Below, piece after piece: positions 22 through 64,000 of a DNA stretch of 64,000 bases. The notes beneath the pieces were generated by a model. The model saw only the letters and a list, made by a program, of their open reading frames with translations, searched no databases and was not told where the DNA came from. The position numbers were made by a program, and so were the translations under genes. Within the stretch, counting starts at the first letter, position 1, and each line of letters opens with the position of its first letter. Source of the DNA: Squalus acanthias (taxonomy: Eukaryota); NCBI GenBank assembly GCA_030390025.1, contig CM059431.1, positions 121,894,001 through 121,958,000 on the forward strand, given 5' to 3'.

Positions 22-3019
22 GTAAATTTTGATACTTACTTCTAAAGCTGGAAAAAATGACTTGTTGTGTGTCTTATAAAATGTTTAAAAATCTAGCATA
101 AATACAAAGCAATCTAAATGAGGCATATCTTGAACATTCGAGAAGAAATAAGAAAATGTCCAATTCATAGCACTTTAGATTTCAGCACTGTTTGTCGTCT
201 CAGCACTGTTATTAGGGTGAGTGGGATTAATGAAAAACCTTTCTGTATGTTTTTACCTGAATTATTTAAAGTATCAATATTGTAACTGTAAAGTTGTGAG
301 GAAATGTTTTTTCTTTCTGTTGATAAGCTTATGACATGATGGTACATCCCAAAATTCTGCTTTCTAAAACTCATCAACTGGCTCGATGGTGACACTGCTA
401 TGACATGCAATTCAGCTCAGTGCTTTTCCTCCCCTTGTCAGTGATTCCCTTCCTTAAATAGATACATTGCAGTATAATCACTGATGAAAAATAATGATTT
501 GATTAATATTTCAGTATTATACAGCCCTTTGCTTAGTGATGCTCAGAATAGCAGGTTGGTAGTGGCAGGCGAACTTCTATTTTAAGTGAGAACTTTACAT
601 TATTTGGATGTGCCAGTTGCTGGTGATGTTTACTCGGCAAATAAGACATACAACAGATATTTTTATAGCACGAATTATGAGGAATAACATATATTAGGCA
701 TAACTTGTCTTTTGTTCATTTTAGTGGAAACATCCCACTATAGTCCTGCAAAGATTAGCTTGTAGTAAAAAAAAATCATACACAGTCCACTAAGAGCAGT
801 ATTGCACAACAATTGTCTGTGATGCTGTTATTCAAAGAACAATTCAAGGAAAAAAATGAAAGAAAATCTCAACGGCAGAAGGCCTTGGGATATTTTAATT
901 AATCTTCTCTGCTGCTATACAGTTACTGGTTGTGATACAGCACAGAAAAAGATGCAAATTTAATTTGAACTGATAGGAATTCTAAATTAATTTCTGATTT
1001 AAGTTTTACTTTTTATTAAATGGATAAATAAGGTCAGTTCATTTGTTATGATGCAAGATATTTTGGTTATGTGTTGAAGGGAAATGAGCCAGCTGCACTT
1101 GCACAAGTAGTAGAGACAGCGAGGGGAGCTATAATCCTAGGAATGGCTGCTTTTGTGCATCCAGCTATGTTACATTCAGTTATAAAACTCCACGTTAACA
1201 TGAAATTATAAATGACATGCCAAATGATACAGAATAAAAATAGGGTAGATGCACAAAACAATTTACCAAAAACTGTTTACTTGCGAGTCAAAATAGTTCT
1301 AGCAATCACATTTGCTTAAAATGCCTTTTTCTTAATCTACTAGTGTGAAAATTAATGTTTTAGTGCTAGTATTGTGCTTACCATTTGTACCTGTTGGCAG
1401 AAGCATTTGAGATATTTATTTCTGAAATAAACTAAAATTTGTCAGTAAAACCATTTGGTATTAAAAAGTAGCTGTAGCTCACTAGACCATAAACTATACA
1501 TTATTACAAATGAAATTAATATTTTGAAGTCATTTTTCTCTTATAACAAAAGAGGTTTACAAGATTATCAGATAAAGATTATTATTTGTATCTTGATGTA
1601 CACCAATGAACAAATTGCTTTCATCTTAAATCTCCCAGGTAGTGTTTAACTGGCTACCTCAGGGATAATTGGTTGTCATTGATTGCCACAGGATATGACT
1701 GCCTGCTTTTCTGCTGCACTGAATTAAAATTTCACAGGCGTATTTAATCACTGTTAATATCTTTAAGCAGTAATGAATATTTGGGTGAACAACCATGCCA
1801 CATTAGAAAATCTGATTATTGAATGATGAGACTAAAGGTTGTGTCTGTCAATCTTTAGCCCATTCTTAATGTCGTAAGACAGTTTTACACATGAATTCTA
1901 CTATTGATGTTTAATCACACTTTAAAGATTTTAGGCCTTCGTTTCCCCTTTGGCAATCACTGGCGGTGCATATGCAGAAGGAATTTGTAATGTGGGCAAG
2001 TGCTGATGTGCGGTTCCACACAGATGTTTAGTGCTGCAGCCATTTCTGCTCATGTACAATTGTCCGTTGCTGTTAGTGCCTAATAAATGTATTAATACCG
2101 ACGTTATGCAGCAACACTGCGGGCCACATGTAAGTGCAATCTCATATAAAAGTATAGAGGATAATAAAGCCTTATAGATCCATATTAAGTCGAGACAACA
2201 CATAAAGGTGAAGTAACACTGACCTTCAGAGTAAATTGCAGAATGTTTTTATTTTCTTTTGATGTGATGCAGAGGCAGGACAAAGAAAGAGGAGAAGATA
2301 TTTTCTATGTGGGTGTATTGGGCTCTATTATGTGCTCATAGCCTGGCAAACAGCCACCATTTCCAGAAAATTAATTGGTAAATACACTTGAGTTATGATT
2401 TAGAAACAAATTTGGCAGTGAGTATCACATGTCCCAATTAGTCATTTCCAAGCACCTTGACACAAGTGTCCAGAGATGGCAATTAGGTGAATAAGTTTGC
2501 CTTCAAGTGTATTATGTTTCAACATGACCTGGTAAAACTATGACAAATGAATGACAAATCTGAAGTGACCATCGCAGAAGGAGAGTAGTCCTCTACCGGC
2601 ACTGATAGTTAGCTGGCTGAAACTTCAGCCTTTCAGCTAACTGATTAGACGCTGTGAGAGATCATCTACCTTGTTGCTTATTTATTCCATATCATCCTAT
2701 TGGATTCTGTGCCATTTTATTAAATTTGTTGTCTATTTTTCAAACAAATTACTGAAGTCAGTTGGAAACCTACCAGGTTCAGGACTCATGTTTCCTCTCA
2801 TCGTGCTCTTACATACTTGGACTACCTCCATCAACCTTGGGAAAGCACTTGACACAAGTCATTTTATTCTGAGCAGAATAAGAAGTAAGGATGTAAGGGT
2901 CAACTGACGTGCAGACCGAACATTCACCAAGAATGGTGGAAACAGCCTTGGAAAGAAAAACAAAACGGTCATTTGGGTTATCCAGAAACCTTGAGAAAAC
3001 ACTTGATAGAGAAATTACA

Positions 3020-3620
3020 GCACAGAAGCCGACCATTCAGCCTGTTGTGCTTTTGCCAATGTTGGCTCTTCAACTGGAGCTATCTGCTCTAATCCCATTT
3101 CCATGACCTGTCCCTGCAAGCTTTTATATTTGTCCTTATCAAATACTTATTCCATTCCTTTTTAAATGATGTTATACTCTGTGCCCCAATACCCACTTGT
3201 GGCAAACCAATCCATGTTCTAATAATTATCCATGTAACACATGCTTTCTAACTTCTGCCTTCATTTTTCTAGTGATACTTTTTAGTCAATACTCCCTTGT
3301 TACAAATTTACCAACCAGTGGAAACAATCTTTCACTATTTACCCTCTTAAAACCTTTCATTATTTGGAAAAGCTCTATTAAATCCCCCTTAACCCGCTCT
3401 GTTCCAGGGAAAAAGCCCCATTTTTTAAATTCTTTCTTCACAATTATTACCTCTAATTTCTGGTATCCCCTTAGTGAATCTTTGCTGTACCCTTCCAAGA
3501 CTTTAATATTTTTCCTATAATGGGATGCTCAGAATGGCACAAAAAAACTCCAACTGCTGCCTAACCAATGTCTTGTACAAATTAACCATAACATCCTTAC
3601 TTTGTATTCAATGCCTCTGT
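3020..3620 (-). mobile_element. Decayed CR1 LINE 3' fragment
   Basis: ORF 3286-3498 has RVKGDLIELFQIMKGF..VNSERLFPLVG, the CR1 ORF2 C-terminal motif; boundaries approximate. Confidence 0.8.
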
Positions 3621-36948: not shown

Positions 36949-38034
36949 CATTGCTCATTGGTGCAAGTAGTAATGATTTTGGTCTTTACATATTTTTTTC
37001 ATTTGTTCACTGGATGTGGGCGTTATTGCCCATCCCTAATTGCCCTTGAGAAGGTGGTGGTGAGCCGCCTTCTTGAACCGCTGCAGTCCGTGTGGTGATG
37101 GTACTCCCACAGTGCTGTTAGGTAGGGAGTTCCAGGATTTTAACCCAGCGACAATGAAGGAGCAGCAATATATTTCCAAGCCAGGATGGTGTGTAACTTG
37201 GAGGGGAACTTGGAGGTGGTGGTGTTCCCATACGCCTGCTGCCTGTTGCCTGCTGTCGAAGAAGCCTTAGCGAGTTGCTGCAGTGCATCTTGTAGATGGT
37301 ACACACTGCAGCCACGGTGCACCGGCGGTGGAGGGAGTGAATGATTAAGGTGGTGAAAGGGGTGCCAATCAAGTGGGCTGCTTTGTCCTGGATGGTGTCG
37401 AGCTTCATGAGTGTTGTTGGAGCTGCACTCATCCAGGCAAGTGGAGAGTATTCCATCACACTCCTGACTTGTGCCTTGTAGATGGTGGAAAGGCTTTGCG
37501 GAGTCAGGAGGTGAGACACTCGCCACAGAATACCTAGACTCTGACCTGCTCTTGTAGCCACAGTATTTATGTGACTGGTCCAGTTAAGTTTCTGGTCAAT
37601 GGTGACACCCAGGGTGTTGATGGTGGGGGATTTGGCGATGGTAATGCCATGAATGTCAAGGGGCGGTGGATAGACTCTCTCTTGTTGGAGATGATCATGT
37701 CTTGCATTTGTGTGGCGTGAATGTTACTTGCCACTTATCAGCCCAAGCCTGAATGTCATCCAGGTCTTGTGGCATGCGGGCATGGACGGCTTCATTATAA
37801 GAACATAAGAACATAAGAAATAGGAGCAGGAGTAGGCCAATCGGCCCCTCGAGCCTGCTCCGCCATTCAATAAGATCATGGCTGATCTGATCCTAACCGC
37901 CAATCTACTATCAATCACAGAACCATCTCCTGCATCTAACAGAATTGCACACACGAAATAGGAGCAGAATCAGGCTACACGGTCCCTGGGCCCGCTCCAC
38001 TACCCACAGGGCCATGACCGATCCGAACCTAGAC

Positions 38035-40960
38035 TCATGTCCAAATTCCTGCCCGCTCCCCGTAACCCTTAATGCCCTTTACTTCTAGGAAACTGTCTAT
38101 TTCTGTTTTAAATTTAATTAATGTTGTAGCTTCTACAGCTTTTTGTGGCAGCATATTCCATGGACCTACCACCCTCTGAGTGAAGTAGTTCCTCCTCATC
38201 TCAGTTTTGAAAGAGCAGCCCCTTATTCTAAGACTATGTCCCCTAGTTCTAGTCTCACCCGTCATCGGGAACATCCTCCCCGCATCCACCCGATCCAACC
38301 CCTTCACAATCTTATATGTTTCAATAAGATCGCCTCTCATTCTTCTGAACTCCAATGAGTAGAGTCCCAATCTACCCAACCTCTCCTCATATGACCACCC
38401 CCTCATCCCCGGGATTAACCGAGTGAACCTTTTTTGCACTGCCTCGAGAGCAAGGATGTCTTTCCTTAAGTAAGGACACCAAAACTGTATGCAGTATTCC
38501 AGGTGCGGTCTCACCAATACCTTGTACAACTGAAGCAATACCTCCCTATTTTTATATTCTATCCCCCTAGCAATGAAAGCCAACATTCCATTTGCCTTCT
38601 TAATCACTTGCTGCACCTGCATACTAACCTTTTGAGTTTCGTGCACCAGGACCCCCAGATCCCTTTGCACTTCAGTACTCTCCAGTTTCTTGCCATTAAG
38701 ATAATAAATTGCTCTAGGATTTTTCCTGCCAAAGTGCATCACCTCACACTTTCCAGTGTTGTATTCCATCTGCCAAATCTCTGCCCACTTACTTAGCCTG
38801 TCTATGTCCCCTTGCAGGTTTTTTATGTCCTCCTCACTCACTACTATCCCTCCCATCTTTGTATCATCTGCAAATTTTGATATGTTACACTTGGTCCCTT
38901 CCTCCAAATCGTTAATATAGATTGTGAAGAGTTGGGGACCCAGCACTGACCCCTGTGGAACACCACTAGTTACTGATTGCCAGTCTGAGAATGAACCATT
39001 TATCCCAACTCTTTGCTTTCTGTTAGATAGCCAATCCTCTATCCATGCCAGAATATTACCCCCAATCCCGTGATTTTTTACCTTAAGCAATAATCTTTTG
39101 TGTGGCACCTTGTCAAATGCCTTTTGGAAGTCTAAATACACTCCGTCCACTGGTTCCCCTTTATCCACTCTATATGTTACTTCCTTAAAGAACTCCAGCA
39201 AATTTGTCAAACATGACTTCCCCTTCGTAAAACCATGCTGACTTTGTCCTATTAAATTATGATTATCCAAATGTCCTGTTACTGTTTCCTTAATAATGGA
39301 CTCCAAAATTTTACCTACCACAGATGTTAGGCTAACCGGTCTATAGTTACCAGCCTTCTGTCTACTGCCCTTTTTAAATAAGGGTGTTACATTAGCAGTT
39401 TTCCAGTCTGCCGGGACCTTAGCGGAATCCAGGGAGTTTTGAAAAATTATTACCAATGCATCTACAATCCCTACCGCCACTTCCTTCAAGACTCTAGGAT
39501 GTAAGCCATCAGGTCCAGGTGATTTATCCGCCTTGAGTCCCATTATTTTACCGAGTACCACTTCCTTAGTGATTTTGATCGTGTTTAGCTCCTCTCCCCC
39601 TATAGCCCCCTGTTTGTCCAGTGTTGGGATATTCTTAGTGTCCTCTACTGTAAAGACTGATACAAAATATTCATTCAGTGTTTTTGCCATCTCCATATTT
39701 CCCACCATTAATTTCCCGGTCTCATCCTCTAAGGGACCAACATTTACTTTAGCCACCCTTTTTCTTTTTATATAACTATAAAAACTCTTACTATCTGTTT
39801 TTATATTTTTTGCTAATTTACTTTCATAGTCTATCTTCCCTTTCTTAATCAATCTTTTTGTTATTTTTTGCTGCCTTTTAAAGTTTTCCCAATCCTCTGT
39901 CCTCCCACTAGATTTCGCTACCTTATATGCCCTTGTTTTTAGTCGAATACTATCCTTAATTTCTTTACTTAGCCACGGATGACTGTCCTTTCTTTTACAC
40001 CCTTTTCTTTTCAGTGGAATATATATTTTTTGGAAGTTGTAAAATAACTCCTTGAATGTACACCACTGATCATGTGTCGTCTTACCCTTTAATCTATTTT
40101 CCCAATCCACTCTACTCAATTCCGCTCGCATACCTTCATAGTCTCCTTTATTCAAGCTTAGCACCCTCTAATTGAATATGGAATTCAACCATGTTATGGT
40201 CACTCATTCCAAGGGGATCCTTTACTAGGACATTTTTAATTAATCCTGTCTTGTTACACAGGACCAGATCTAAGGTTGCTTGCCCCCTGGTCGGTTCAGT
40301 TACATACTGCTCAAGAAACCCATCCCATATACACTCAATGAACTCATCCTCAAGGCAGCCCTGCCCAATTTGATTTGTCCAATTAATATGATAGTTAAAA
40401 TCCCCCATAATTATAGATGTTCCCTTATTACATGCCTCAACTATTTCCTGATTGATACTCCGTCCAACAGAGTTGCAACTGTTCGGAGGCCTATAGACTA
40501 CGCCCACTAGTGTTTTTTTCCCCTTATTATTCCTTATCTCCACCCAAACTGTTTCATTATCATGATTTTTTGACCCAATATCATTACTCTGTATTACAGT
40601 GATTCCTTCCTTTATTAACATAGCCACCCCACCTCCCTTTCCTTCCTGCCTGTCCTTCCTGATCGTTAAATAACCTGGTATGTTTAATTCCCAGGCATTG
40701 TCACCCTGCAGCCATGTTTCTGTAATGGCCACAATATCAAAACCATATGTAGTTATTTGTGCCATTAACTCGTCTATTTTGTTACGAATGCTACGTGCAT
40801 TCAGATAGAGAACTTTCAAATATGCTTTGTGGCACTTAGTTCCTGCTTTTTCACTTTTTACCACTTTACCTTTTGCTCCACACACTCTGTCCCTTCCTGC
40901 CACGCTCTGATTTGTGATTCCCCTACTGCTACCTATGTCTATGACCCTCTCTGTTGTCAT
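38035..40960 (-). CDS. CR1 ORF2 (APE endonuclease + reverse transcriptase), one frameshift at ~40150-40165
   Basis: 270-aa ORF (YLNARS, ITETW, GDFN, SDH) overlapping a 709-aa ORF (QHGF, LDFQKAFD, PQGSVLGP, FADD). Confidence 0.93.
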
Positions 40961-40998
40961 TTTTATTTTTTGCTCTCTTGAAACCTCCCCCCCACTAA

Positions 40999-41955
40999 TT
41001 AGTTTAAAGCCCTCTCCACAGCCCTAGTTATTCGATTCGCCAGGACACTAGTCCCAGCACTGGCCAAGTGAAGTCCGTCCCAACGGAACAGCTCTCTCCT
41101 GCCCCAGTACTGGTGCCAGTGTCCCAAGAAGCAAAACCCATTTTTCCCACACCAGTCTTTGAGCCACGCATTCAACTCCCTGATTTTATTTACCCTAGCC
41201 AAATTTGCTCGTGGCTCAGGTAGTAATCCAGAGATTATTACCCTCGAGGTTCTGCTTTTTAATTTGGCCCCTAGCTGCTCAAACTCCCTCAGCAGAACCT
41301 CTTTCCTTGTCCTATCTATGTCATTGGTACCAACATGGACCACGACAACTGGATCCTCCCCCTCCCACTCCAAGTTTCTCTCCAGCCCAGAGGCGATGTC
41401 CTTAACCCTGGCACCGGGCAGGCAACACAGCCTTCGGGACTCTCGCTCTTGGCTGCAAAGAACCCTATCTATCCCCCTAATGATACTATCCCCTACCACT
41501 ACAACATTTCTTTTTACTCCCCCCACTTGAATGGCCCCCCTTACCACGGTGCTGTGGCCAGGTTGCTCATCCTCCCTGCAGTCCCCGCTCCTATCCACAC
41601 AGGGAGTAAGAGCCTCGAACCTGTTGGACAAGAGCAAGGGCTGCGGCTCCTCCAACACTACCTCCTGGATCCCTGTACCTGCCTCACTCGTAGTCACACC
41701 TTCCTGTCCCTGACCACGGGCTACTTCTGAATTAGTTACTCTAATTGGTGTGACTACCTCCTGAAACACGGAGTCCAGGTAACTCTCCCCCTCCCTGATG
41801 TGTCGCAGTGTTTGAAGCTCGGTCTCCAGCTCATCAACCCGGAGCCGGAGTTCCTTGAGCAGCCAACACTTACTGCAAATGTGTTCACCGTGAACATCAA
41901 TGGTGTCCACCAGCTCCCACATATTGCAGCAGTAACACATCACCTGCTCTCCCAT
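40999..41955 (-). CDS. CR1 ORF1p: zinc finger/leucine zipper plus SGNH esterase domain (318 aa)
   Basis: CYCC..CSKC, coiled coil LKELRLRVDELETELQTL, GDS, HVGTND and DGLH motifs. Confidence 0.93.
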   Translation of the reverse strand: MGEQVMCYCCNMWELVDTIDVHGEHICSKCWLLKELRLRVDELETELQTLRHIREGESYLDSVFQEVVTPIRVTNSEVARGQGQEGVTTSEAGTGIQEVVLEEPQPLLLSNRFEALTPCVDRSGDCREDEQPGHSTVVRGAIQVGGVKRNVVVVGDSIIRGIDRVLCSQERESRRLCCLPGARVKDIASGLERNLEWEGEDPVVVVHVGTNDIDRTRKEVLLREFEQLGAKLKSRTSRVIISGLLPEPRANLARVNKIRELNAWLKDWCGKNGFCFLGHWHQYWGRRELFRWDGLHLASAGTSVLANRITRAVERALN

Positions 41956-42169
41956 TCTATGTAATTAATTAAAAATTTATTATTTACCCTTCAGTTAATT
42001 TATGCCAGCAGTCTCTGCTACACCACAGATACCCGAGAAACTATAAACTATGGAATTGAAGTTTTGTATAAAAAAAGAGAAATACTCACCAACCAATCAC
42101 TTACCTGCTTTCTGGTGACGTCACACTTCGATTATTTTTTACCTCTCTCCTGCTCTCGGCTTGGTGAAA

Positions 42170-42547
42170 GCCTACCTGGTCGCTGCTGCCTTTTACCGCC
42201 GCCGCCTCGCCGCTGTTGCTCCACCCAGGTCCGCCGCCTCTGTGGGCCTACCTGGTCGCTGCCGCCTTTTACCGCCGCCGCCTCGCCGCTGTTGCTCCAC
42301 CCAGGTCCGCCGCCTCTGTGGGCCTACCTGGTCGCTGCCGCCTTTTACCACCGCCGCCTCGCTGCTGTTGCTCCACCCAGGTCCGCCGCCTCTGTGGGCC
42401 TACCTGGTCGCTGCCGCCTTTTACCGCCGCCGCCTCGCCGCTGTTGCTCCACCCAGGTCCGCCGCCTCTGTGGGCCTACCTGGTCGCTGCCGCCTTTTAC
42501 CGCCGCCGCCTCGCCGCTGTTGCTCCACCCAGGTCCGCCGCCTCTGT
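42170..42547 (-). repeat. Five tandem 76-bp GC-rich monomers in the CR1 5' UTR
   Basis: Near-identical units start at 42170, 42246, 42322, 42398 and 42474. Confidence 0.97.
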
Positions 42548-43195
42548 CAACTCTGAAGAGTTGTGGATTGAACGGAACACTGTGCAATCATCAACAAACA
42601 TCCCCACTTCTGACACTATAATGGAGGGAATGTCATTGATGAAGCAGCTGAAGATGGTTGTGCCTAGGATACTGCCCTGAGGAACTCCTGTATTGATGTC
42701 CTGGAGCTGCAACCTGCAACCACCACAACCATCTTCCCTTGTGCTCGGTATGACTAGAGCCAGTGGAGAGTTTTCCCCCTGATTTCAATTGACTTCAATT
42801 TCACTAGGACTCCTTGATGCCACTCTCATCAAATGCTGCCTTAATGTCAAGGGCAGTCACTCTCACCTCACTTCTGGAATTCAGCTCTTTTGTCCATGTA
42901 TGGACCAAGCCTGTAATGAGGTCTGGAGCTGAGTGGCCTTGGCAGAACCCAAACTGAGCATTGGTGAGCAGGTTATTGTTGAGTAAGTGCTGCTTGATAA
43001 CACTGTCGACGATATGTTCCATCACTTTGCTGATGATTGAGAGTAGACTGATGGGGCGGTAATTGGCCAGATTGGATTTGTCCTGCTTTTTATGGACAGG
43101 ACATACATGGGCAGTTTGCCACATTGTCAGGTAGATACCAGTGTTGTAGCTGTACTGGAACAGCTTGGCTAGAGGCGCAGCTAGTTCTGGAGCAC

Positions 43196-43709
43196 ATAGG
43201 AACATAGGAACAAGAGTAGGCAATTTAGCCCCTCGAGCCTGTTCCGCCATTCAATGAGATCATGGCTGATCGGCGACCTACCTCCATATACCAGCCTTTG
43301 TCCCCATATCCCTTAATACCTTTGGTTAAAAAAAAATTATCAATCTGAGATTTAAAATTAACAATTGATGTAGTATCAATTGCCGTTTGCGGAAGAGAGT
43401 TCCAAACTTCTACCACCCTTTGTGTGTAGAAGTGTTTCCTAATTTCACTGCTGAAAGGTCTGGTTCTAATTTTTAGACTATGCCTCATCGTCCTAAACTC
43501 CCCAACCACTGGAAATAGTTTCTCTCTACCTACACTATCAGATCTCCTTAATATCTTGAAAACTTTGATCAACTCACCTCTTAACCTTCTAAATTCCAGG
43601 GAGTACAACCCTGGTTTGTGTAATCTCTCCTCATAGTTTAAAACCTGTAGTCTACGTATAATTCTGGTAAACCTACGCTTCACTCCCACCAAGGCCAATA
43701 TATCCTTCA
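43196..43709 (-). mobile_element. 5'-truncated CR1 inserted in the tRNA-headed LINE
   Basis: KDILAL..RRLRGELIKVFKIL..HFYTQRVVEVWNSLP; cataggaa tail on +. Confidence 0.9.
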
Positions 43710-45299
43710 AGACTTCAGATTGATAACCGGGACGTTGTGGGACCCATAGCCTTTGCTGTATCCAATGCATTCAGCCGTTTCTTGAGCGGAGTGAATCAAA
43801 TTGGCTTTAGACTGGCTTCTGTGATGGTGGGGACATCAGGACGAGGCTGAGATGGATCATCTACTCGGCACTTCTGGCTGAAGAGGGTTGAGAATGCTTC
43901 AGCCTTGTCTTTTGCATTCACGTTCCAGTCTCCGCCATCATTGAGGATGGGAATGTTCATGGAGCCTCCTCCTCCTGTTAGTTGTTTAATTGTCCACCAT
44001 CTTTCATGACTGAATGTGGCAGGACTGCAGAGTTTTGATCTGATCCGTTGGTTGTGGGATCACTTAGCCCTGTCTTTGCATCACTTAGCATTTTGTTTCC
44101 GCTGTTTAGCATGTATGTAGTCCTGTGTTGTTGCTTCACCAGGTTGGCACTTGATTTTTAGGTATGCCTGGTGCTGCTCCTGGTATGCTCTTCTGCACTC
44201 CTCATTGAACCAGGCTTGGTTCCCTGGCTTGATTGTAATGAAGATAAGAGTGAGGGATATTCCAGGCCATGAAGTGGCAGATTGTGGTGAAATACAATTC
44301 TGCTGCTGATGGCCCACAGCGCCTCATGGATGCCCAGTTTTGAGCTGCTAGATCTGTTCTGAATCTATCCCATTTAGCACGGTGGTAGTCCCACAAAACA
44401 CGATGGAGTGTGTCCTCAATGTGAAGATGGGACTTTTTCTCCATAAAGACTGTGCGGTGGTCACTCCTACCAATACCATCATGGACTGATGCATCTGCGA
44501 CAGGTAGATTGGTGAGAACGAGGTCAAGTAGGTTTTCCCCTCGTTTTGATTCTCTCACCACCTGCCGCAAGCCCAGTCTGGCAGCTGTGTCCTTCAGGAC
44601 TCGGCCAGCTCGGTCAGTAGTGGTGCTAGCAAGCCACTCTTGGTGATGGACATTGAAGTCCCCCACCCAGTCTAAATTCTACCCTCAGTGCTTCTTCCAA
44701 GTGGTGTTCAACATGGAGGAGTACTGATTCATCAGTTGAGCGATGGCAGTAGATGGTAATCAGCAGGAGGTTTCCTTGCGCATGTTTGACCTGATGCCAT
44801 GAAACTTCATGGGGTCTGGCGTCAATGTTCATGACTCCCAGAGGCACTCCCTCCCGACTGTATACCACTGTGCCACTACTTCTGGTGGGCCTGTCCAGCC
44901 GGTGGGACAGGACATACCCAGGGATGGTGATTGAGGAGACTGGAAAGTTGGCTGATAGTTATGATTCTGTGAGTATGATTATGTCAGCCTATTGCTTGAC
45001 TAGTCTGTGGGCCAGCTCTCTGAATTTTGGTACAAGTCCCCAGATGTTTGTGAGGAGGACTTTGCAGGGTCGACTGGGCTGGGTGTGCCTTTGTTGTGTC
45101 CGGTGCCTAGGTCAATGCCAGGTGGTTCATCTGATTTTATTCTTAGCAGTTTGGTACAACTGAGTGGCTTGCTAGGCCATTTCAGAGGACAGTTAAGAGT
45201 CAACCACTTTGCTGTGGGTCTGGAATCGGGTAAGGGCGGCAGATTTCCTTCCCTAAAGGACATTGTTGAACGGCAATCCTGTAGTTTCATGAAGTTATT

Positions 45300-45420
45300 T
45301 AATTAACTGAATTTAAATTTCCCAGCTGCCGTGGTGGGATTTGAACTCACGTCTCCAGATCATTAGCCCAGGCCTCTAGGTTACTAGTCCAGTAACATAA
45401 CCACTATGCTACTGTACCCC
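45300..45420 (-). promoter_or_regulatory. tRNA-derived RNA Pol III internal promoter (A box 45401-45411, B box 45337-45348)
   Basis: Minus strand TAGCATAGTGG and GAGTTCAAATCC match the tRNA A/B box consensus. Confidence 0.8.
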
Positions 45421-49363: not shown

Positions 49364-49765
49364 TTTCACTCCCTCCACCACTGGCGCACCGTGGCTGCAG
49401 TGTGTACCATCTACAAGATGCACTGCAGCGACTCGCCAAGGCTTCTTCGGCAGCACCTCCCAAACCCGTGACCTCTACCACCTAGAAGGAAAAGGGCAGC
49501 AGGCGCATGGGAACACCACCACCTCCAAGTTCCCCACCAAGTCACACACCATGCTGACTTGGAAGCATATCGCTGTTCCTTCATCGTCGCTGGGTCAAAA
49601 TCCTGGAACACCCTCCCTAACAGCACTGTGGAAGTACCTTCACCACACAGACTGCAGCGGTTCAAGAAAGTGGCTCACAACCACCTTCTCAAGGGCAACT
49701 GGGGATGGGCAATAAATGCTGGCCTTGCCAGTGACACCCACATCCCATGAACAAATTAAAAAAAA
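49364..49765 (+). mobile_element. 3' fragment of the tRNA-headed LINE family
   Basis: HSLHHWRTVAAVCTIYKMHCS; gggcaataaatgctggcc followed by an A tail; matches rc of 36993-37340. Confidence 0.9.
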
Positions 49766-61599: not shown

Positions 61600-64000
61600 T
61601 GTGGGCAATTTTAACCTAATTCGCCAGGTGGAAACCCATGGGATCAGGTGTAACTGTCCATTGACTTCAAGCCCCGGGCTTCCTGGAACTCACCAGTGAA
61701 AGCAAGGAGAGAGCACAGCGGCAATTGAGGGGGCTGAATTAATCTCAGGGAAATATGCCAATAAATGCTCCTACGGCCCCGATCCTCCTCCAGCCCCCCA
61801 ACCAACTGCCATGCGATCCCACCCTCCCTCCTCTCTGCAGCCTATTGCTGCACGATTCCCAGGCAGCTGCCATGATGCTTCCATCCTGCGGCAGTCCAAC
61901 CTCCCTGACCTCTTTGCACCTGGAAGCAGAGTTACCGGCTGGCTGCTAGGAGACAAGGGTTGCCCACTTAAAGTGTGGGTGATGACACCCTTCAGAAACT
62001 TGAGGAATGAGTCCCAGGAGTGATAAAACAAATGCCATATCGCCACCAGATGAGTCATTAATCAAGCCATTGGCATGCTGAAGATGCACTTCACGTGCCT
62101 GGACAGATCTAGAGGCGCACTTCAGTACGTGCCAGCTAGGGTCTCCAGAATGGTCGTGGTGTGCTGTGCAGCGCGGTTTGGACCTGCAGGAGGAGCAAGG
62201 CACAGAGCCTTTTTGGAGGATTCCGAGGAGGAGGAGGAGGAAGACATGGAGGAGGAAGGTGATGCGAGCAATGCACCAGCAGCTGCACACATTGCTGCCT
62301 GTGATGCCCAGTATGCCCTGATTATTGCAGGACACTAGGCAGCATGTTGGGTACTGATTGAGGGTGGCGGGGTGGGGCGGGGGGCGGGGGGGGGGGTGGT
62401 GGTCAATGGGTGAGGTGGAAGTGTTTTGAATGGAGTCCCCACTTCCATGTCCCCTTTCACCATCATCCCTCACATGGCCCAACCGCACTTCACTGCTACC
62501 ACTGTGCTGGAGAGCACTTTGCTGCAGATGAGTGGGGTGCTGTATGTCAAGATAGGGTATTGGTCATCCTATATAAAGTGGCATCCAAATCTCCAAGCTC
62601 TTGTTCAAGGCCTGCATACACTCGTTTGATTGCCGCATTTGATGCTCCGTGCAGTTGCCCACTCTATTGATGGACGAAGGCATCATTGCACTGGCCTGTT
62701 ACAGGAACCCACTCATGCTTGAAGCGGACTCCTCCAATCTCCCTGCAATAGTAGACAATATGCTTGGAACGCCTGTCAGTACATCGTACATTCCCTGCTG
62801 CTGTTCAATGATTACTTGCTTCATCGATGGCTCCGGGAAACAGCATCTGTGTCCAGCTGAGCAGAGTGTGGAGAAGCCTGTGCCCTCTGACACGGACTCT
62901 CCACTGCTGTTGCTGACTGCACCATCTGTTCTTGCTCACTTGAGAAGTGTGAGTCACCAAGTGAAAACACAAGTATCTCTCTAACTAGTCCCACCGAAGT
63001 ACGAGTATCTGAGTTGGTGCATGGTGTGCATGAGTCCTGTGACAGCGCACCCTCAGAGGGATTGAGCTCCTCTGTGGAATCATTGGTGACCTCCACCAAC
63101 TCCTGTTGCACGTGTAAGGGCCCTGTGGGAGAAAAAAAGACATGAATGAGTACTGTCATGCTGAGAATATTGGAAGTTATCATTATGAAAAGGAGTGTGA
63201 TGGAATACTCTCCACTTGCCTGGATGAGTCCAGCTCCAATAACATTCAAGAAGCTCAACACCATCCAGGACAAAGTAGCCCGCTTGATTGGCACCCCATC
63301 CACCACCTTAAACATTCACTCCCTCCACCATCGGCGTATCATGGCTACAGAGTGTACCATCTACAAGATGCACTGCAGCAACTCGCCAAGGCTTCTTCGA
63401 CAGCATCTCCCAAACCCACGACCTCTACCACCTAGAAGGACAAGGGCAGCAGGCACATGGGTACACTACCACCACCAAGTTCCCCTCCAAGTCACACACC
63501 ATCCTGTCTTGGAAATATATCGCCGTTCCTTCATTGTCGCTGGGTCAAAATCCTGAACTCCCTCCCTAACAGCACTATGGGAGTACCTTCACCATACGGA
63601 CTACAGTGGTTCAAGAAGGCGGCTCACCACCACCTTCTCAAGGGCAATTAAGGATTGGGAAATAAATGCTGGCCTTGCCAGTGATGCCCACATTCCATTA
63701 ATGAATTAAAAAAACATGATCATACTTCACTCGCTGTTGACATCAAGTCAATATGACTGAGTGATGTATGACATGTGGCTGCCTGATATTTAATTCTGTT
63801 AGCTGATAGCTGGGAAAGCCCCATTTAAAATGGCCAGGCACGGCGAGACTCTGCTGATCTAAAGCGTCTCCTCCTCTGCACTTATGAGTTGTGAGATCTG
63901 TGGAGGGAAAGAAGAGATCTTTGAGTGAGAGTAATGACATGTGTTCAACCGATGGATGGGGTGCATTTGGTGAGGATGACTTTGAGGGAGAGGCATGCAA
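61600..64000. mobile_element. Another Harbinger relic (transposase C-terminus on +, Myb exon 3 on -), probably running off the window
   Basis: FPGSCHDASILRQS..WLLGDKGCPL, LKMHFTCLDRSRGALQY, acidic tail; 62620-63125 on - is homologous to 13493-14508. Confidence 0.8.
63190..63714 (+). mobile_element. 3' fragment of the tRNA-headed LINE family inserted in a Harbinger intron
   Basis: RSVMEYSPLAWMS..IQDKVARLIG..IYKMHCSNSPRLLRQHLP; aataaatgctggcc followed by an A tail. Confidence 0.9.

What the first reader, a model, noticed from the sequence alone, without database searches (positions are those of the whole stretch)
36993..45420. Candidate Pol III-transcribed autonomous LINE: tRNA head, no ORF1, sense strand nearly free of T4 terminators
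Seen: removing the two nested CR1s (37798-~42551 and 43196-43709) leaves a contiguous ~3.2 kb minus-strand element. It begins with a tRNA-like head (A box TAGCATAGTGG, B box GAGTTCAAATCC) and reaches an APE N-terminus (KVLLTNIWGL..DIIILTES) within ~250 bp of the head, leaving no room for ORF1. It continues through RT to an A-rich tail. By eye I count only one TTTT on its sense strand (44395-44398) and none in the two other copies (49364-49765, 63190-63714), against roughly nine or more in the similar-length neighbouring CR1 ORF2. The two sister copies also have AATAAA near their 3' ends. Known: Pol III terminates at T4 or longer runs, and tRNA heads are a SINE hallmark while LINEs normally use Pol II 5' UTR promoters. 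Inference: a coding retrotransposon transcribed by Pol III and selected against terminators, possibly the parent of a shark SINE family by internal deletion. This copy is decayed (stops and frameshifts).
Basis: partly seen in the sequence, partly recalled or inferred. Interest (0 to 1): 0.85.

Follow-up and report, generated by a model that had tools for sequence, protein, structure and literature searches.

The report
LINE retrotransposon with a tRNA-type head
This is a decayed copy of a very abundant 3.3-kb protein-coding jumping gene whose true front end, in copy after copy across the genome, is the tRNA-like promoter module normally found only on tiny non-coding SINEs, which raises the testable possibility that a coding retrotransposon is started by RNA polymerase III.

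Summary
With two nested CR1-like inserts removed, window 45420-36993 (minus strand) is one 3.16-kb copy of a single-ORF (endonuclease plus reverse transcriptase) LINE. Its first ~100 bases are a tRNA-derived head with A and B boxes.

- **The junction is not local.** Of 39 copies picked only by the LINE-specific leader, 20 run colinearly to element base 1-12. The other 19 are truncated at scattered points, and none has another shared 5' end or an ORF1.
- **Head and ORF were inherited together.** Diagnostic sites agree with the ORF tree, divergence is similar in all regions, and target-site duplications bracket head-to-tail units.
- **A tRNA-SINE family equals the LINE's first ~340 plus last ~110 bases.** Several deletion junctions occur.
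- **The T4 scarcity is real but mostly compositional.** T is 20%; observed 0 against expected about 2, P about 0.08-0.1.
- **Polymerase III use is inferred, not shown.** The precise start 8 nt upstream of the A box favours it. The 3.3-kb length and the need for translation argue against it.
- **The main ORF has no AUG family-wide.**

My paper searches found no description of such a LINE. Earlier scan notes on other genomes raised similar ideas, and their follow-ups rejected or left them open. This one survives testing.

The parts
45321..45420 (-). tRNA-derived head. A box at 45411-45401, B box at 45348-45337, with a duplicated anticodon arm between them. It is the 5' terminus of the element.
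   Evidence: Upstream flanks are unrelated between copies. 20 of 39 leader-selected copies reach element base 1-12.
45144..45320 (-). Body shared with the SINE family (element about 101-338). This copy has internal deletions relative to the family.
45064..45143 (-). LINE-specific leader (element about 339-440). It is absent from the main SINE form. In younger copies it holds the ATG of a 49-codon short frame that overlaps the main ORF.
43708..45063 (-). Main ORF, part 1: endonuclease and the start of the reverse-transcriptase region. Decayed, with stops and frameshifts. The only sense-strand T4 lies at 44398-44395.
43197..43707 (-). Nested insert 1: 3' fragment of a CR1-like element. Not part of the LINE.
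   Evidence: colinear break at element 1792/1793.
42552..43196 (-). Main ORF, part 2: reverse transcriptase.
37799..42551 (-). Nested insert 2: 4.75-kb CR1-like LINE with its own ORFs and 12 sense-strand T4. Not part of the LINE.
   Evidence: It is 28% identical to the headed LINE's protein over 601 aligned residues.
36993..37798 (-). Main ORF, part 3: the C-terminal region, the stop codon and a roughly 65-nt 3' tail with an A-rich end. The last ~110 nt equal the SINE tail.
49364..49765 (+). 5'-truncated copy of the same LINE family (element 2903-3302).
63190..63714 (+). 5'-truncated copy of the same LINE family (element 2778-3302).

Best explanation
The locus is an old, twice-interrupted copy of an abundant 3.3-kb single-ORF (endonuclease plus reverse transcriptase) LINE family. 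Its authentic, inherited 5' end is a SINE-type module: a tRNA-derived head with A and B boxes, followed by a roughly 240-nt body.

**Shown**
- Head, body, leader, ORF and tail are copied together as one retrotransposition unit.
- The unit starts precisely at head base 1.
- The family has no ORF1.
- Internal-deletion forms of it (first ~340 nt plus last ~110 nt) make up a tRNA-SINE family.

**Inferred**
- The RNA that becomes new full-length copies is started by RNA polymerase III from the head's internal promoter.
- It reads through the T4-free element and ends in the downstream flank.
- It is recognised through the shared 3' tail by the protein it encodes.
- How that RNA, or a second RNA, is translated is open. 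The main ORF has no AUG.
For: **The junction is family-wide.**
- 23 of 40 scored places (the window's own included) align from the head into the endonuclease. Their upstream flanks are unrelated to each other.
- 10 of 20 fetched 5-kb loci are colinear from head to tail in one piece.
- 7 of 40 best matches to a young full copy start at base 20 or earlier.
- In the sample chosen without regard to the head, 39 copies were picked only by the LINE-specific leader. 20 reach base 1-12, 19 are truncated at scattered points, and 0 have another shared upstream sequence.

**The unit is inherited whole.**
- Pairwise distances among 16 copies: head 0.12, body 0.09, leader 0.14, ORF 0.08, tail 0.09.
- Two 5'-region sites (element 4 and 327) carry a state found in 4 of 4 copies that are basal in the ORF tree and in 0 of the other 12.
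- The LINE 5' regions form one tight clade apart from most SINE copies.
- Flank pairs of the same copy share longer exact matches than mismatched pairs: 5.69 against 4.18, permutation P = 0.0002. A 12-bp duplication brackets L050.

**Points favouring polymerase III (consistent, none a test).**
- The unit starts 8 nt before the A box, where a type-2 internal promoter places initiation (established knowledge).
- The same head type sits on non-coding SINE copies.
- 6 of 16 full copies have no T4, and the other 10 have 1 or 2.
- The 5' region holds many upstream ATGs and the main ORF has none, which is unlike a cap-scanned mRNA.
- In L1 assays, polymerase III transcripts retrotranspose without ORF1p (PMC2666806, abstract read).
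Against: - No transcript data were obtained, so the polymerase is inferred from anatomy alone.
- T4 scarcity is mostly compositional. Expectation is about 2 per element, and the synonymous-shuffle P is 0.084. One relative with 19% T has only 2 T4.
- Natural polymerase III transcripts are short. Kojima 2024 (PMC10886601, passages read) argues that weak processivity limits such elements to under about 1.3 kb and that autonomous elements must use polymerase II.
- Polymerase III RNA is uncapped, and no internal ribosome entry element was shown.
- An AATAAA and an A-rich end resemble polymerase II 3' processing.
- The absence of ORF1 is ancestral to the protein's relatives.
- Every copy inspected has a broken ORF, so no active source element was seen.
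Confidence: 0.5

Rival explanations
1. The structure is the same (a headed LINE inherited as one unit), but functional transcripts are made by RNA polymerase II. The SINE-derived 5' module would be a captured 5' UTR or promoter, a case of LINE 5'-end switching. The A and B boxes would at most help keep chromatin open.
For: - LINE 5' ends are known to be replaced while the body stays (bioRxiv 10.1101/2022.11.04.512097, passages read).
- A 3.3-kb coding RNA needs translation.
- AATAAA and an A-rich tail are present.
- T4 scarcity is not significant beyond composition.
- Field consensus is that LINEs use polymerase II (PMC5786205, PMC10886601, passages read).
Against: - A polymerase II promoter would have to start exactly at the first base of a tRNA-derived head. 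19 of 39 leader-selected copies start at base 1-2.
- The 355-nt leader has many upstream ATGs and the main ORF has no AUG, which is poor for cap-dependent scanning.
Confidence: 0.3
2. The LINE RNA itself starts inside or after the body. The head is added anew at many insertions, when the reverse transcriptase switches by homology onto abundant SINE RNA.
For: - SINE forms with a body at least 88% like the LINE's are far more abundant than LINE 5' ends in contigs of four runs.
- One SINE copy (L158) has a LINE-type head.
- Small clusters of 5' ends lie near element 70-77 and 110-117.
Against: - LINE 5' regions form one tight clade and are about as diverged as the ORF.
- Diagnostic 5' sites follow the ORF tree.
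- All LINE heads seen are of the double-arm type, whereas SINE heads are of both types.
Confidence: 0.1
3. The junction is a chance neighbour: a SINE next to a 5'-truncated LINE, or a LINE that lands site-specifically inside a SINE.
For: An earlier scan note on another genome raised a SINE-targeting LINE.
Against: - The same junction occurs in dozens of copies at unrelated loci.
- Behind the A-rich tail there is no SINE remainder, only unrelated flank.
- Target-site duplications bracket head-to-tail units.
Confidence: 0.01

Closest known systems
tRNA-derived SINEs whose middle and tail come from the 5' and 3' ends of a partner LINE (RTE and Vingi cases; Kojima 2018, PMC5786205, abstract and passages read)
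   Same: The SINE here is a tRNA head plus the LINE's 5' part plus its 3' tail, with internal-deletion junctions.
   Different: In the published cases the head sits only on the deleted, non-coding derivative, and the LINE is taken to be a polymerase II element. Here the full-length coding LINE carries the head itself.
LINE 5'-end switching or promoter replacement (SolRTE in Nicotiana, bioRxiv 10.1101/2022.11.04.512097, passages read; mammalian L1 as cited there)
   Same: A conserved ORF and 3' end joined to an exchangeable 5' module.
   Different: The module here is a SINE-type tRNA head with polymerase III boxes, not a polymerase II 5' UTR.
Vingi-clade LINEs (single ORF, about 3.1 kb, many internal-deletion derivatives; PMC3894237 and PMC5786205, passages and table read)
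   Same: Single APE-RT ORF, about 3.3 kb, no RNase H hit, and it spawns deletion derivatives and SINEs.
   Different: Clade membership was not tested, because no named reference sequences were at hand. No tRNA head is reported for Vingi in the passages read.
TRIMp3 elements (Cassandra, Helenus, Ajax): retrotransposons carrying small-RNA-derived polymerase III promoters (PMC10886601, abstract and passages read)
   Same: A retroelement outside the classical SINEs with a tRNA- or 5S-derived promoter module.
   Different: Those are LTR elements, non-coding and under about 1.3 kb. This is a coding 3.3-kb non-LTR element.
HE1 SINE / HER1 LINE pair of sharks and rays (listed in a table of PMC3747384; the primary paper was not held)
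   Same: An elasmobranch tRNA-SINE sharing its 3' tail with a LINE.
   Different: Identity with HE1/HER1 could not be tested, as no reference sequence was available. Any likeness is from recall only.
U6-L1 and other template-switch chimeras (recalled knowledge; PMC11838501 seen only in a search listing)
   Same: A small polymerase III RNA sequence joined to the 5' side of LINE sequence.
   Different: Those junctions differ from insertion to insertion and are dead ends. Here one junction is inherited by a whole family.

Membership tests
APE-type non-LTR retrotransposon (LINE) | ORF with an apurinic-type endonuclease followed by a reverse transcriptase | tested here: met
   Pfam Exo_endo_phos_2 (8e-14), Exo_endo_phos and RVT_1 (5e-35) on family members. 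One frame of about 970 codons with 2 stops in L052.
APE-type non-LTR retrotransposon (LINE) | Many 5'-truncated copies sharing one 3' end, with variable target-site duplications | tested here: met
   (truncations). (duplications: 4 of 13 copies with 6 bp or more, P = 0.0002).
APE-type non-LTR retrotransposon (LINE) | Transcription by RNA polymerase II from an internal 5' UTR promoter | not testable with these tools
   No usable RNA data (searches gave contigs only).
SINE2 (tRNA-derived SINE) | 5' head derived from tRNA with A and B boxes | tested here: met
   The head is not called a tRNA by ARAGORN or Rfam because of a duplicated anticodon arm and a missing 3' acceptor strand.
SINE2 (tRNA-derived SINE) | Short (about 100-700 bp) and non-coding | tested here: not met
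   3.2-3.3 kb with an APE-RT ORF.
Vingi clade | Single ORF, no ORF1, no RNase H, about 3.1 kb | tested here: met
   No Pfam hit in the C-terminal 222 aa.
Vingi clade | Reverse-transcriptase phylogeny places it within Vingi | not tested
   No named LINE references were available. The nearest database proteins are unnamed or labelled 'jockey'.
CR1 clade (as the nested neighbour) | Close protein similarity to the CR1-like element of the same genome | tested here: not met
   28% identity over 601 aa to the nested CR1-like ORF. Database relatives reach 42%.
Target-specific LINE inserting into a SINE | Remainder of the target SINE follows the LINE's 3' end | tested here: not met
   3' flanks are unrelated.

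The most novel reading that the evidence does not exclude
An autonomous, protein-coding retrotransposon whose replication template, and perhaps its messenger, is made by RNA polymerase III from a tRNA-type internal promoter. In effect it would be an 'autonomous SINE' of 3.3 kb. It would be translated from a non-AUG start and would shed SINE families directly by internal deletion.
Probability: 0.4. Interest if true: 0.92.

Novelty: new variant of a known kind. Interest (0 to 1): 0.8.

Why it matters
Textbook and specialist accounts separate LINEs from SINEs. LINEs are coding and use polymerase II; SINEs are short, non-coding and use polymerase III. Those accounts argue that polymerase III promoters cannot serve autonomous elements (PMC5786205, PMC10886601).

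A family with thousands of leader-bearing candidates (3,586 first-look candidates) carries a SINE head as its inherited 5' end. This blurs that line and has three consequences:
- It gives a direct route from LINE to SINE by simple internal deletion.
- It offers a natural test of whether polymerase III can make a 3.3-kb RNA that is both translated and retrotransposed.
- It may explain part of the repeat load of a 3.7-Gb genome.

Tried and rejected
- **RNA evidence.** No RNA holder was listed. Contigs of four runs, whose kind is only guessed, were laid and cannot show starts, strands or levels.
- **tRNA callers.** ARAGORN and Rfam found no tRNA in the head, in the window or in five younger copies.
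- **Ribozyme.** One weak CPEB3/HDV-like ribozyme match at the 5' end of L062 (22 bits against a gathering score of 35, E = 0.067, reaching into the flank) is taken as chance.
- **'Second 5' end' at element 454.** Seven hits began there. This was an artefact: four of them were fetched, and their real starts were 339, 348, 395 and 427.
- **'Starts at 86'.** Three such starts came from an aberrant stretch in the query copy.
- **tRNA heads in distant relatives.** ARAGORN found 0 of 38 metagenome loci with a tRNA on the coding strand. The A+B-box pattern found 0 of 26. That pattern recognised only 1 of 7 shark copies, so it is a weak test. DNA of the closer relatives (39-42% identity) could not be fetched.
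- **Programmed -1 frameshift from the short frame.** By eye there is no X XXY YYZ site in the overlap. This was not computed.
- **Clade naming.** The Atlas search gave no clade name.
- **Papers.** Ogiwara 1999 and Kojima 2011 are not held.
- **Typed flank pieces.** The statistic was then computed from stored files.
Full report
**1. What is at the locus**

Read on the minus strand, window 45420-36993 begins with a tRNA-like stretch.
- It reaches the endonuclease N-terminus KVLLTNIWGL at 45063, which is 357 nt from the start.
- A full-length relative from elsewhere in the genome aligns to the window in three colinear pieces: element 8-1793, 1792-2444 and 2444-3253.
- The sense strand has one T4 (44398-44395). 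The two 3' fragments at 49364-49765 and 63190-63714 have none, and each has one AATAAA. The nested CR1-like element has 12 T4 in 4754 nt.

**2. The junction is a property of the family**

The window lies in a 3.7-Gb assembly that could be searched.
- A 521-nt query across head, body and endonuclease start gave 11,039 first-look candidates. Of 40 scored places, 23 (the window's own included) align from query position 35 or earlier to 514 or later. The others begin further in.
- In an alignment of 30 loci, the sequence upstream of the head differs in every copy.
- Of 20 loci extended to 5 kb, 10 are colinear from head to 3' tail in one piece of 3.15-3.3 kb. Five more are colinear in two pieces, and five are truncated or disrupted.
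- A younger full copy (L052, 3302 nt) found 31,465 candidates. Of 40 scored, 7 start at base 20 or earlier and the rest are 5'-truncated.
- An apparent common start at base 454 was an artefact. Four such copies, once fetched, begin at 339, 348, 395 and 427.

The least biased test used only the 102-nt LINE-specific leader as query (3,586 candidates; 40 of 40 scored at 94-100% identity, the 100% being the query's own place).
- I fetched the upstream 380 nt of all 39 other places.
- 20 run colinearly to element base 1-12, with 19 of them at base 1-2.
- 19 stop at scattered points between 16 and 340.
- None shows another shared upstream sequence.
- In about 100 copies looked at, there is no ORF1 and no alternative 5' region.

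**3. Head and ORF travel together**
- Pairwise distances among 16 full copies are similar along the element: head 0.12, body 0.09, leader 0.14, ORF 0.08, tail 0.09.
- Two informative sites in the 5' region (element 4 and 327) have one state in the four copies that are basal in an ORF-only tree, and the other state in all 12 others.
- In a tree of 5' regions, the LINE copies form one tight clade. 13 of 14 SINE copies lie outside it on long branches.
- The flanks of one copy share longer exact matches than flanks of different copies (mean 5.69 against 4.18; permutation P = 0.0002). 4 of 13 copies reach 6 bp or more, against 10% of 156 mismatched pairs. L050 has a 12-bp duplication directly abutting head and tail.
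- Behind the A-rich tail there is only unrelated DNA.

This excludes a chance neighbour and a LINE that targets a SINE. It also argues against a head added afresh at each insertion.

**4. Coding capacity and an odd start**
- Pfam finds the endonuclease and reverse-transcriptase families and nothing else.
- All copies examined are broken. The best are L052 (one frame of about 970 codons with two stops) and two 5'-truncated copies with open frames of 864 and 874 codons.
- The main frame is open from element 328 but has no ATG before the endonuclease. This holds in the majority sequence and in the copies checked.
- An ATG at element 356 is present in 39 of 40 young copies. It opens a 49-codon frame that overlaps the main ORF out of frame.
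- Relatives in the protein collection start with Met directly before the endonuclease. Some have a basic N-terminal extension that resembles the shark element's main frame.
- The codon at element 337 is ACG in 27 of 40 copies. Initiation there is a guess.

**5. The T4 question**
- Sixteen full copies have 0-2 T4 on the sense strand (sum 13; six have none). Dinucleotide-preserving shuffles give a sum of 36.
- A4 runs are as expected: 236 observed against 227.
- The scattered T4s look like post-insertion mutations, so the source probably had none.
- One ancestral sequence with 0 where about 2 are expected is weak evidence. A synonymous-codon shuffle of the L052 ORF gives a mean of 2.1 and P = 0.084.
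- The strand has only 20% T. Among 31 distant relatives (25-36% identity, unknown hosts), none has zero T4. Their median is 21 and T is 19-37%. The one with 19% T has 2.
- So the element could be read through by polymerase III, but selection for that is not shown.

**6. Relation to SINEs**

I aligned 14 SINE copies to the LINE. Twelve of them I picked from the 40 scored places, and two were found in flanks.
- 11 consist of element 1 to about 338 joined to about 3190-3302.
- Three have other junctions: 341|3187, about 355|3193, and 296|3219.
- Contigs of four runs from four coded organisms hold many further joined forms that skip about 2,880-2,950 nt. The kind of these runs, DNA or RNA, is only guessed.
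- SINE copies are 72-82% alike, which makes them older than the LINE copies (87-95% alike after gaps are ignored).
- At least four SINE copies have a single anticodon arm and at least five have the duplicated arm. All LINE heads have the duplicated arm.
- Recurrent internal deletion of the headed LINE is therefore supported. L148 and L158 carry extra leader sequence, and L158 also has a LINE-type head.
- The main SINE form with the simpler head may predate the present LINE head. The order of events stays open.

**7. Relatives and clade**
- The nearest proteins in the large collection are only about 42% identical. They are 934-976 aa long and sit on contigs of 3.2-4.0 kb, so they are compact single-ORF elements. 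Their DNA could not be fetched.
- More distant metagenome relatives show no tRNA-like head, but that test was weak.
- The nested CR1-like protein is 28% identical.
- Size, the single ORF and the habit of shedding deletion derivatives recall the Vingi clade (PMC3894237, PMC5786205, passages read). No phylogeny with named references was possible.

**8. Literature**
- Eight full-text searches were answered. None returned a LINE with a tRNA-derived 5' end.
- Kojima 2018 derives SINE bodies from LINE 5' parts but puts the head on the deleted form only.
- Kojima 2024 states that non-LTR elements use polymerase II and that polymerase III's weak processivity limits element length (passages read).
- Kroutter 2009 shows that polymerase III transcripts retrotranspose without ORF1p (abstract read).
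- Repbase and Dfam entries and subscription papers could not be checked.

**9. Mechanism and odds**

Shown: a single retrotransposed unit from head base 1 to the A-rich tail.

Inferred: the start point, 8 nt before the A box and the same as in the SINE copies, is what a type-2 polymerase III promoter would give. A polymerase II promoter would have to hit the same base by coincidence.

My odds:
- About 0.5 that polymerase III makes the template RNA.
- About 0.3 that polymerase II does so from a captured SINE module.
- About 0.1 for repeated template switching onto SINE RNA.
- The remainder for other explanations.

Two earlier scan notes on other genomes carried related ideas. Their follow-ups rejected one and left the other open. 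I tested those alternatives here, and they do not hold for this family.

Noticed in passing
Family-wide; window 45143-45064 (leader): The main APE-RT frame has no ATG before the endonuclease. A 49-codon short frame with an ATG (39 of 40 young copies) overlaps it out of frame. The window copy and many older copies have ATA instead of that ATG.
   Followed up: partly
window 45400-45350 and all LINE heads: The head contains two tandem anticodon-arm-like hairpins. Some SINE copies have only one. This is why tRNA finders miss it.
   Followed up: partly
window 42551-42300 (minus strand): The nested 4.75-kb CR1-like element starts with tandem repeats of about 80 bp rich in GGC/GCG. It keeps three long ORF pieces (321, 291 and 710 codons), so it is much younger than its host copy.
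   Followed up: no
L062:3256-3329 (minus strand): Weak match to the CPEB3/HDV-like ribozyme model across the flank-head boundary of one copy (22 bits, below the gathering score). Probably chance, but HDV-like ribozymes are known at LINE 5' ends.
   Followed up: no
L066 (G000:C16:75185875-75189294), 5' end: An inverted copy of the first ~18 nt of the head abuts the element. This looks like a 5' inversion made during insertion.
   Followed up: no
L029 and L030 (G000:C10, about 70 kb apart): Two copies truncated at the same base with near-identical flanks: a segmental duplication, not two insertions.
   Followed up: no
L160, L179, L185, L165: Four of 39 leader-selected copies end their 5' side within or just after the B box (element about 70-77). 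This is a small cluster that might mark a minor alternative start or a pause site.
   Followed up: partly
L076:1369-1443 (minus strand), metagenome contig: A tRNA-Ile gene lies on the opposite strand just upstream of a distant LINE relative's match. Probably a neighbour.
   Followed up: no
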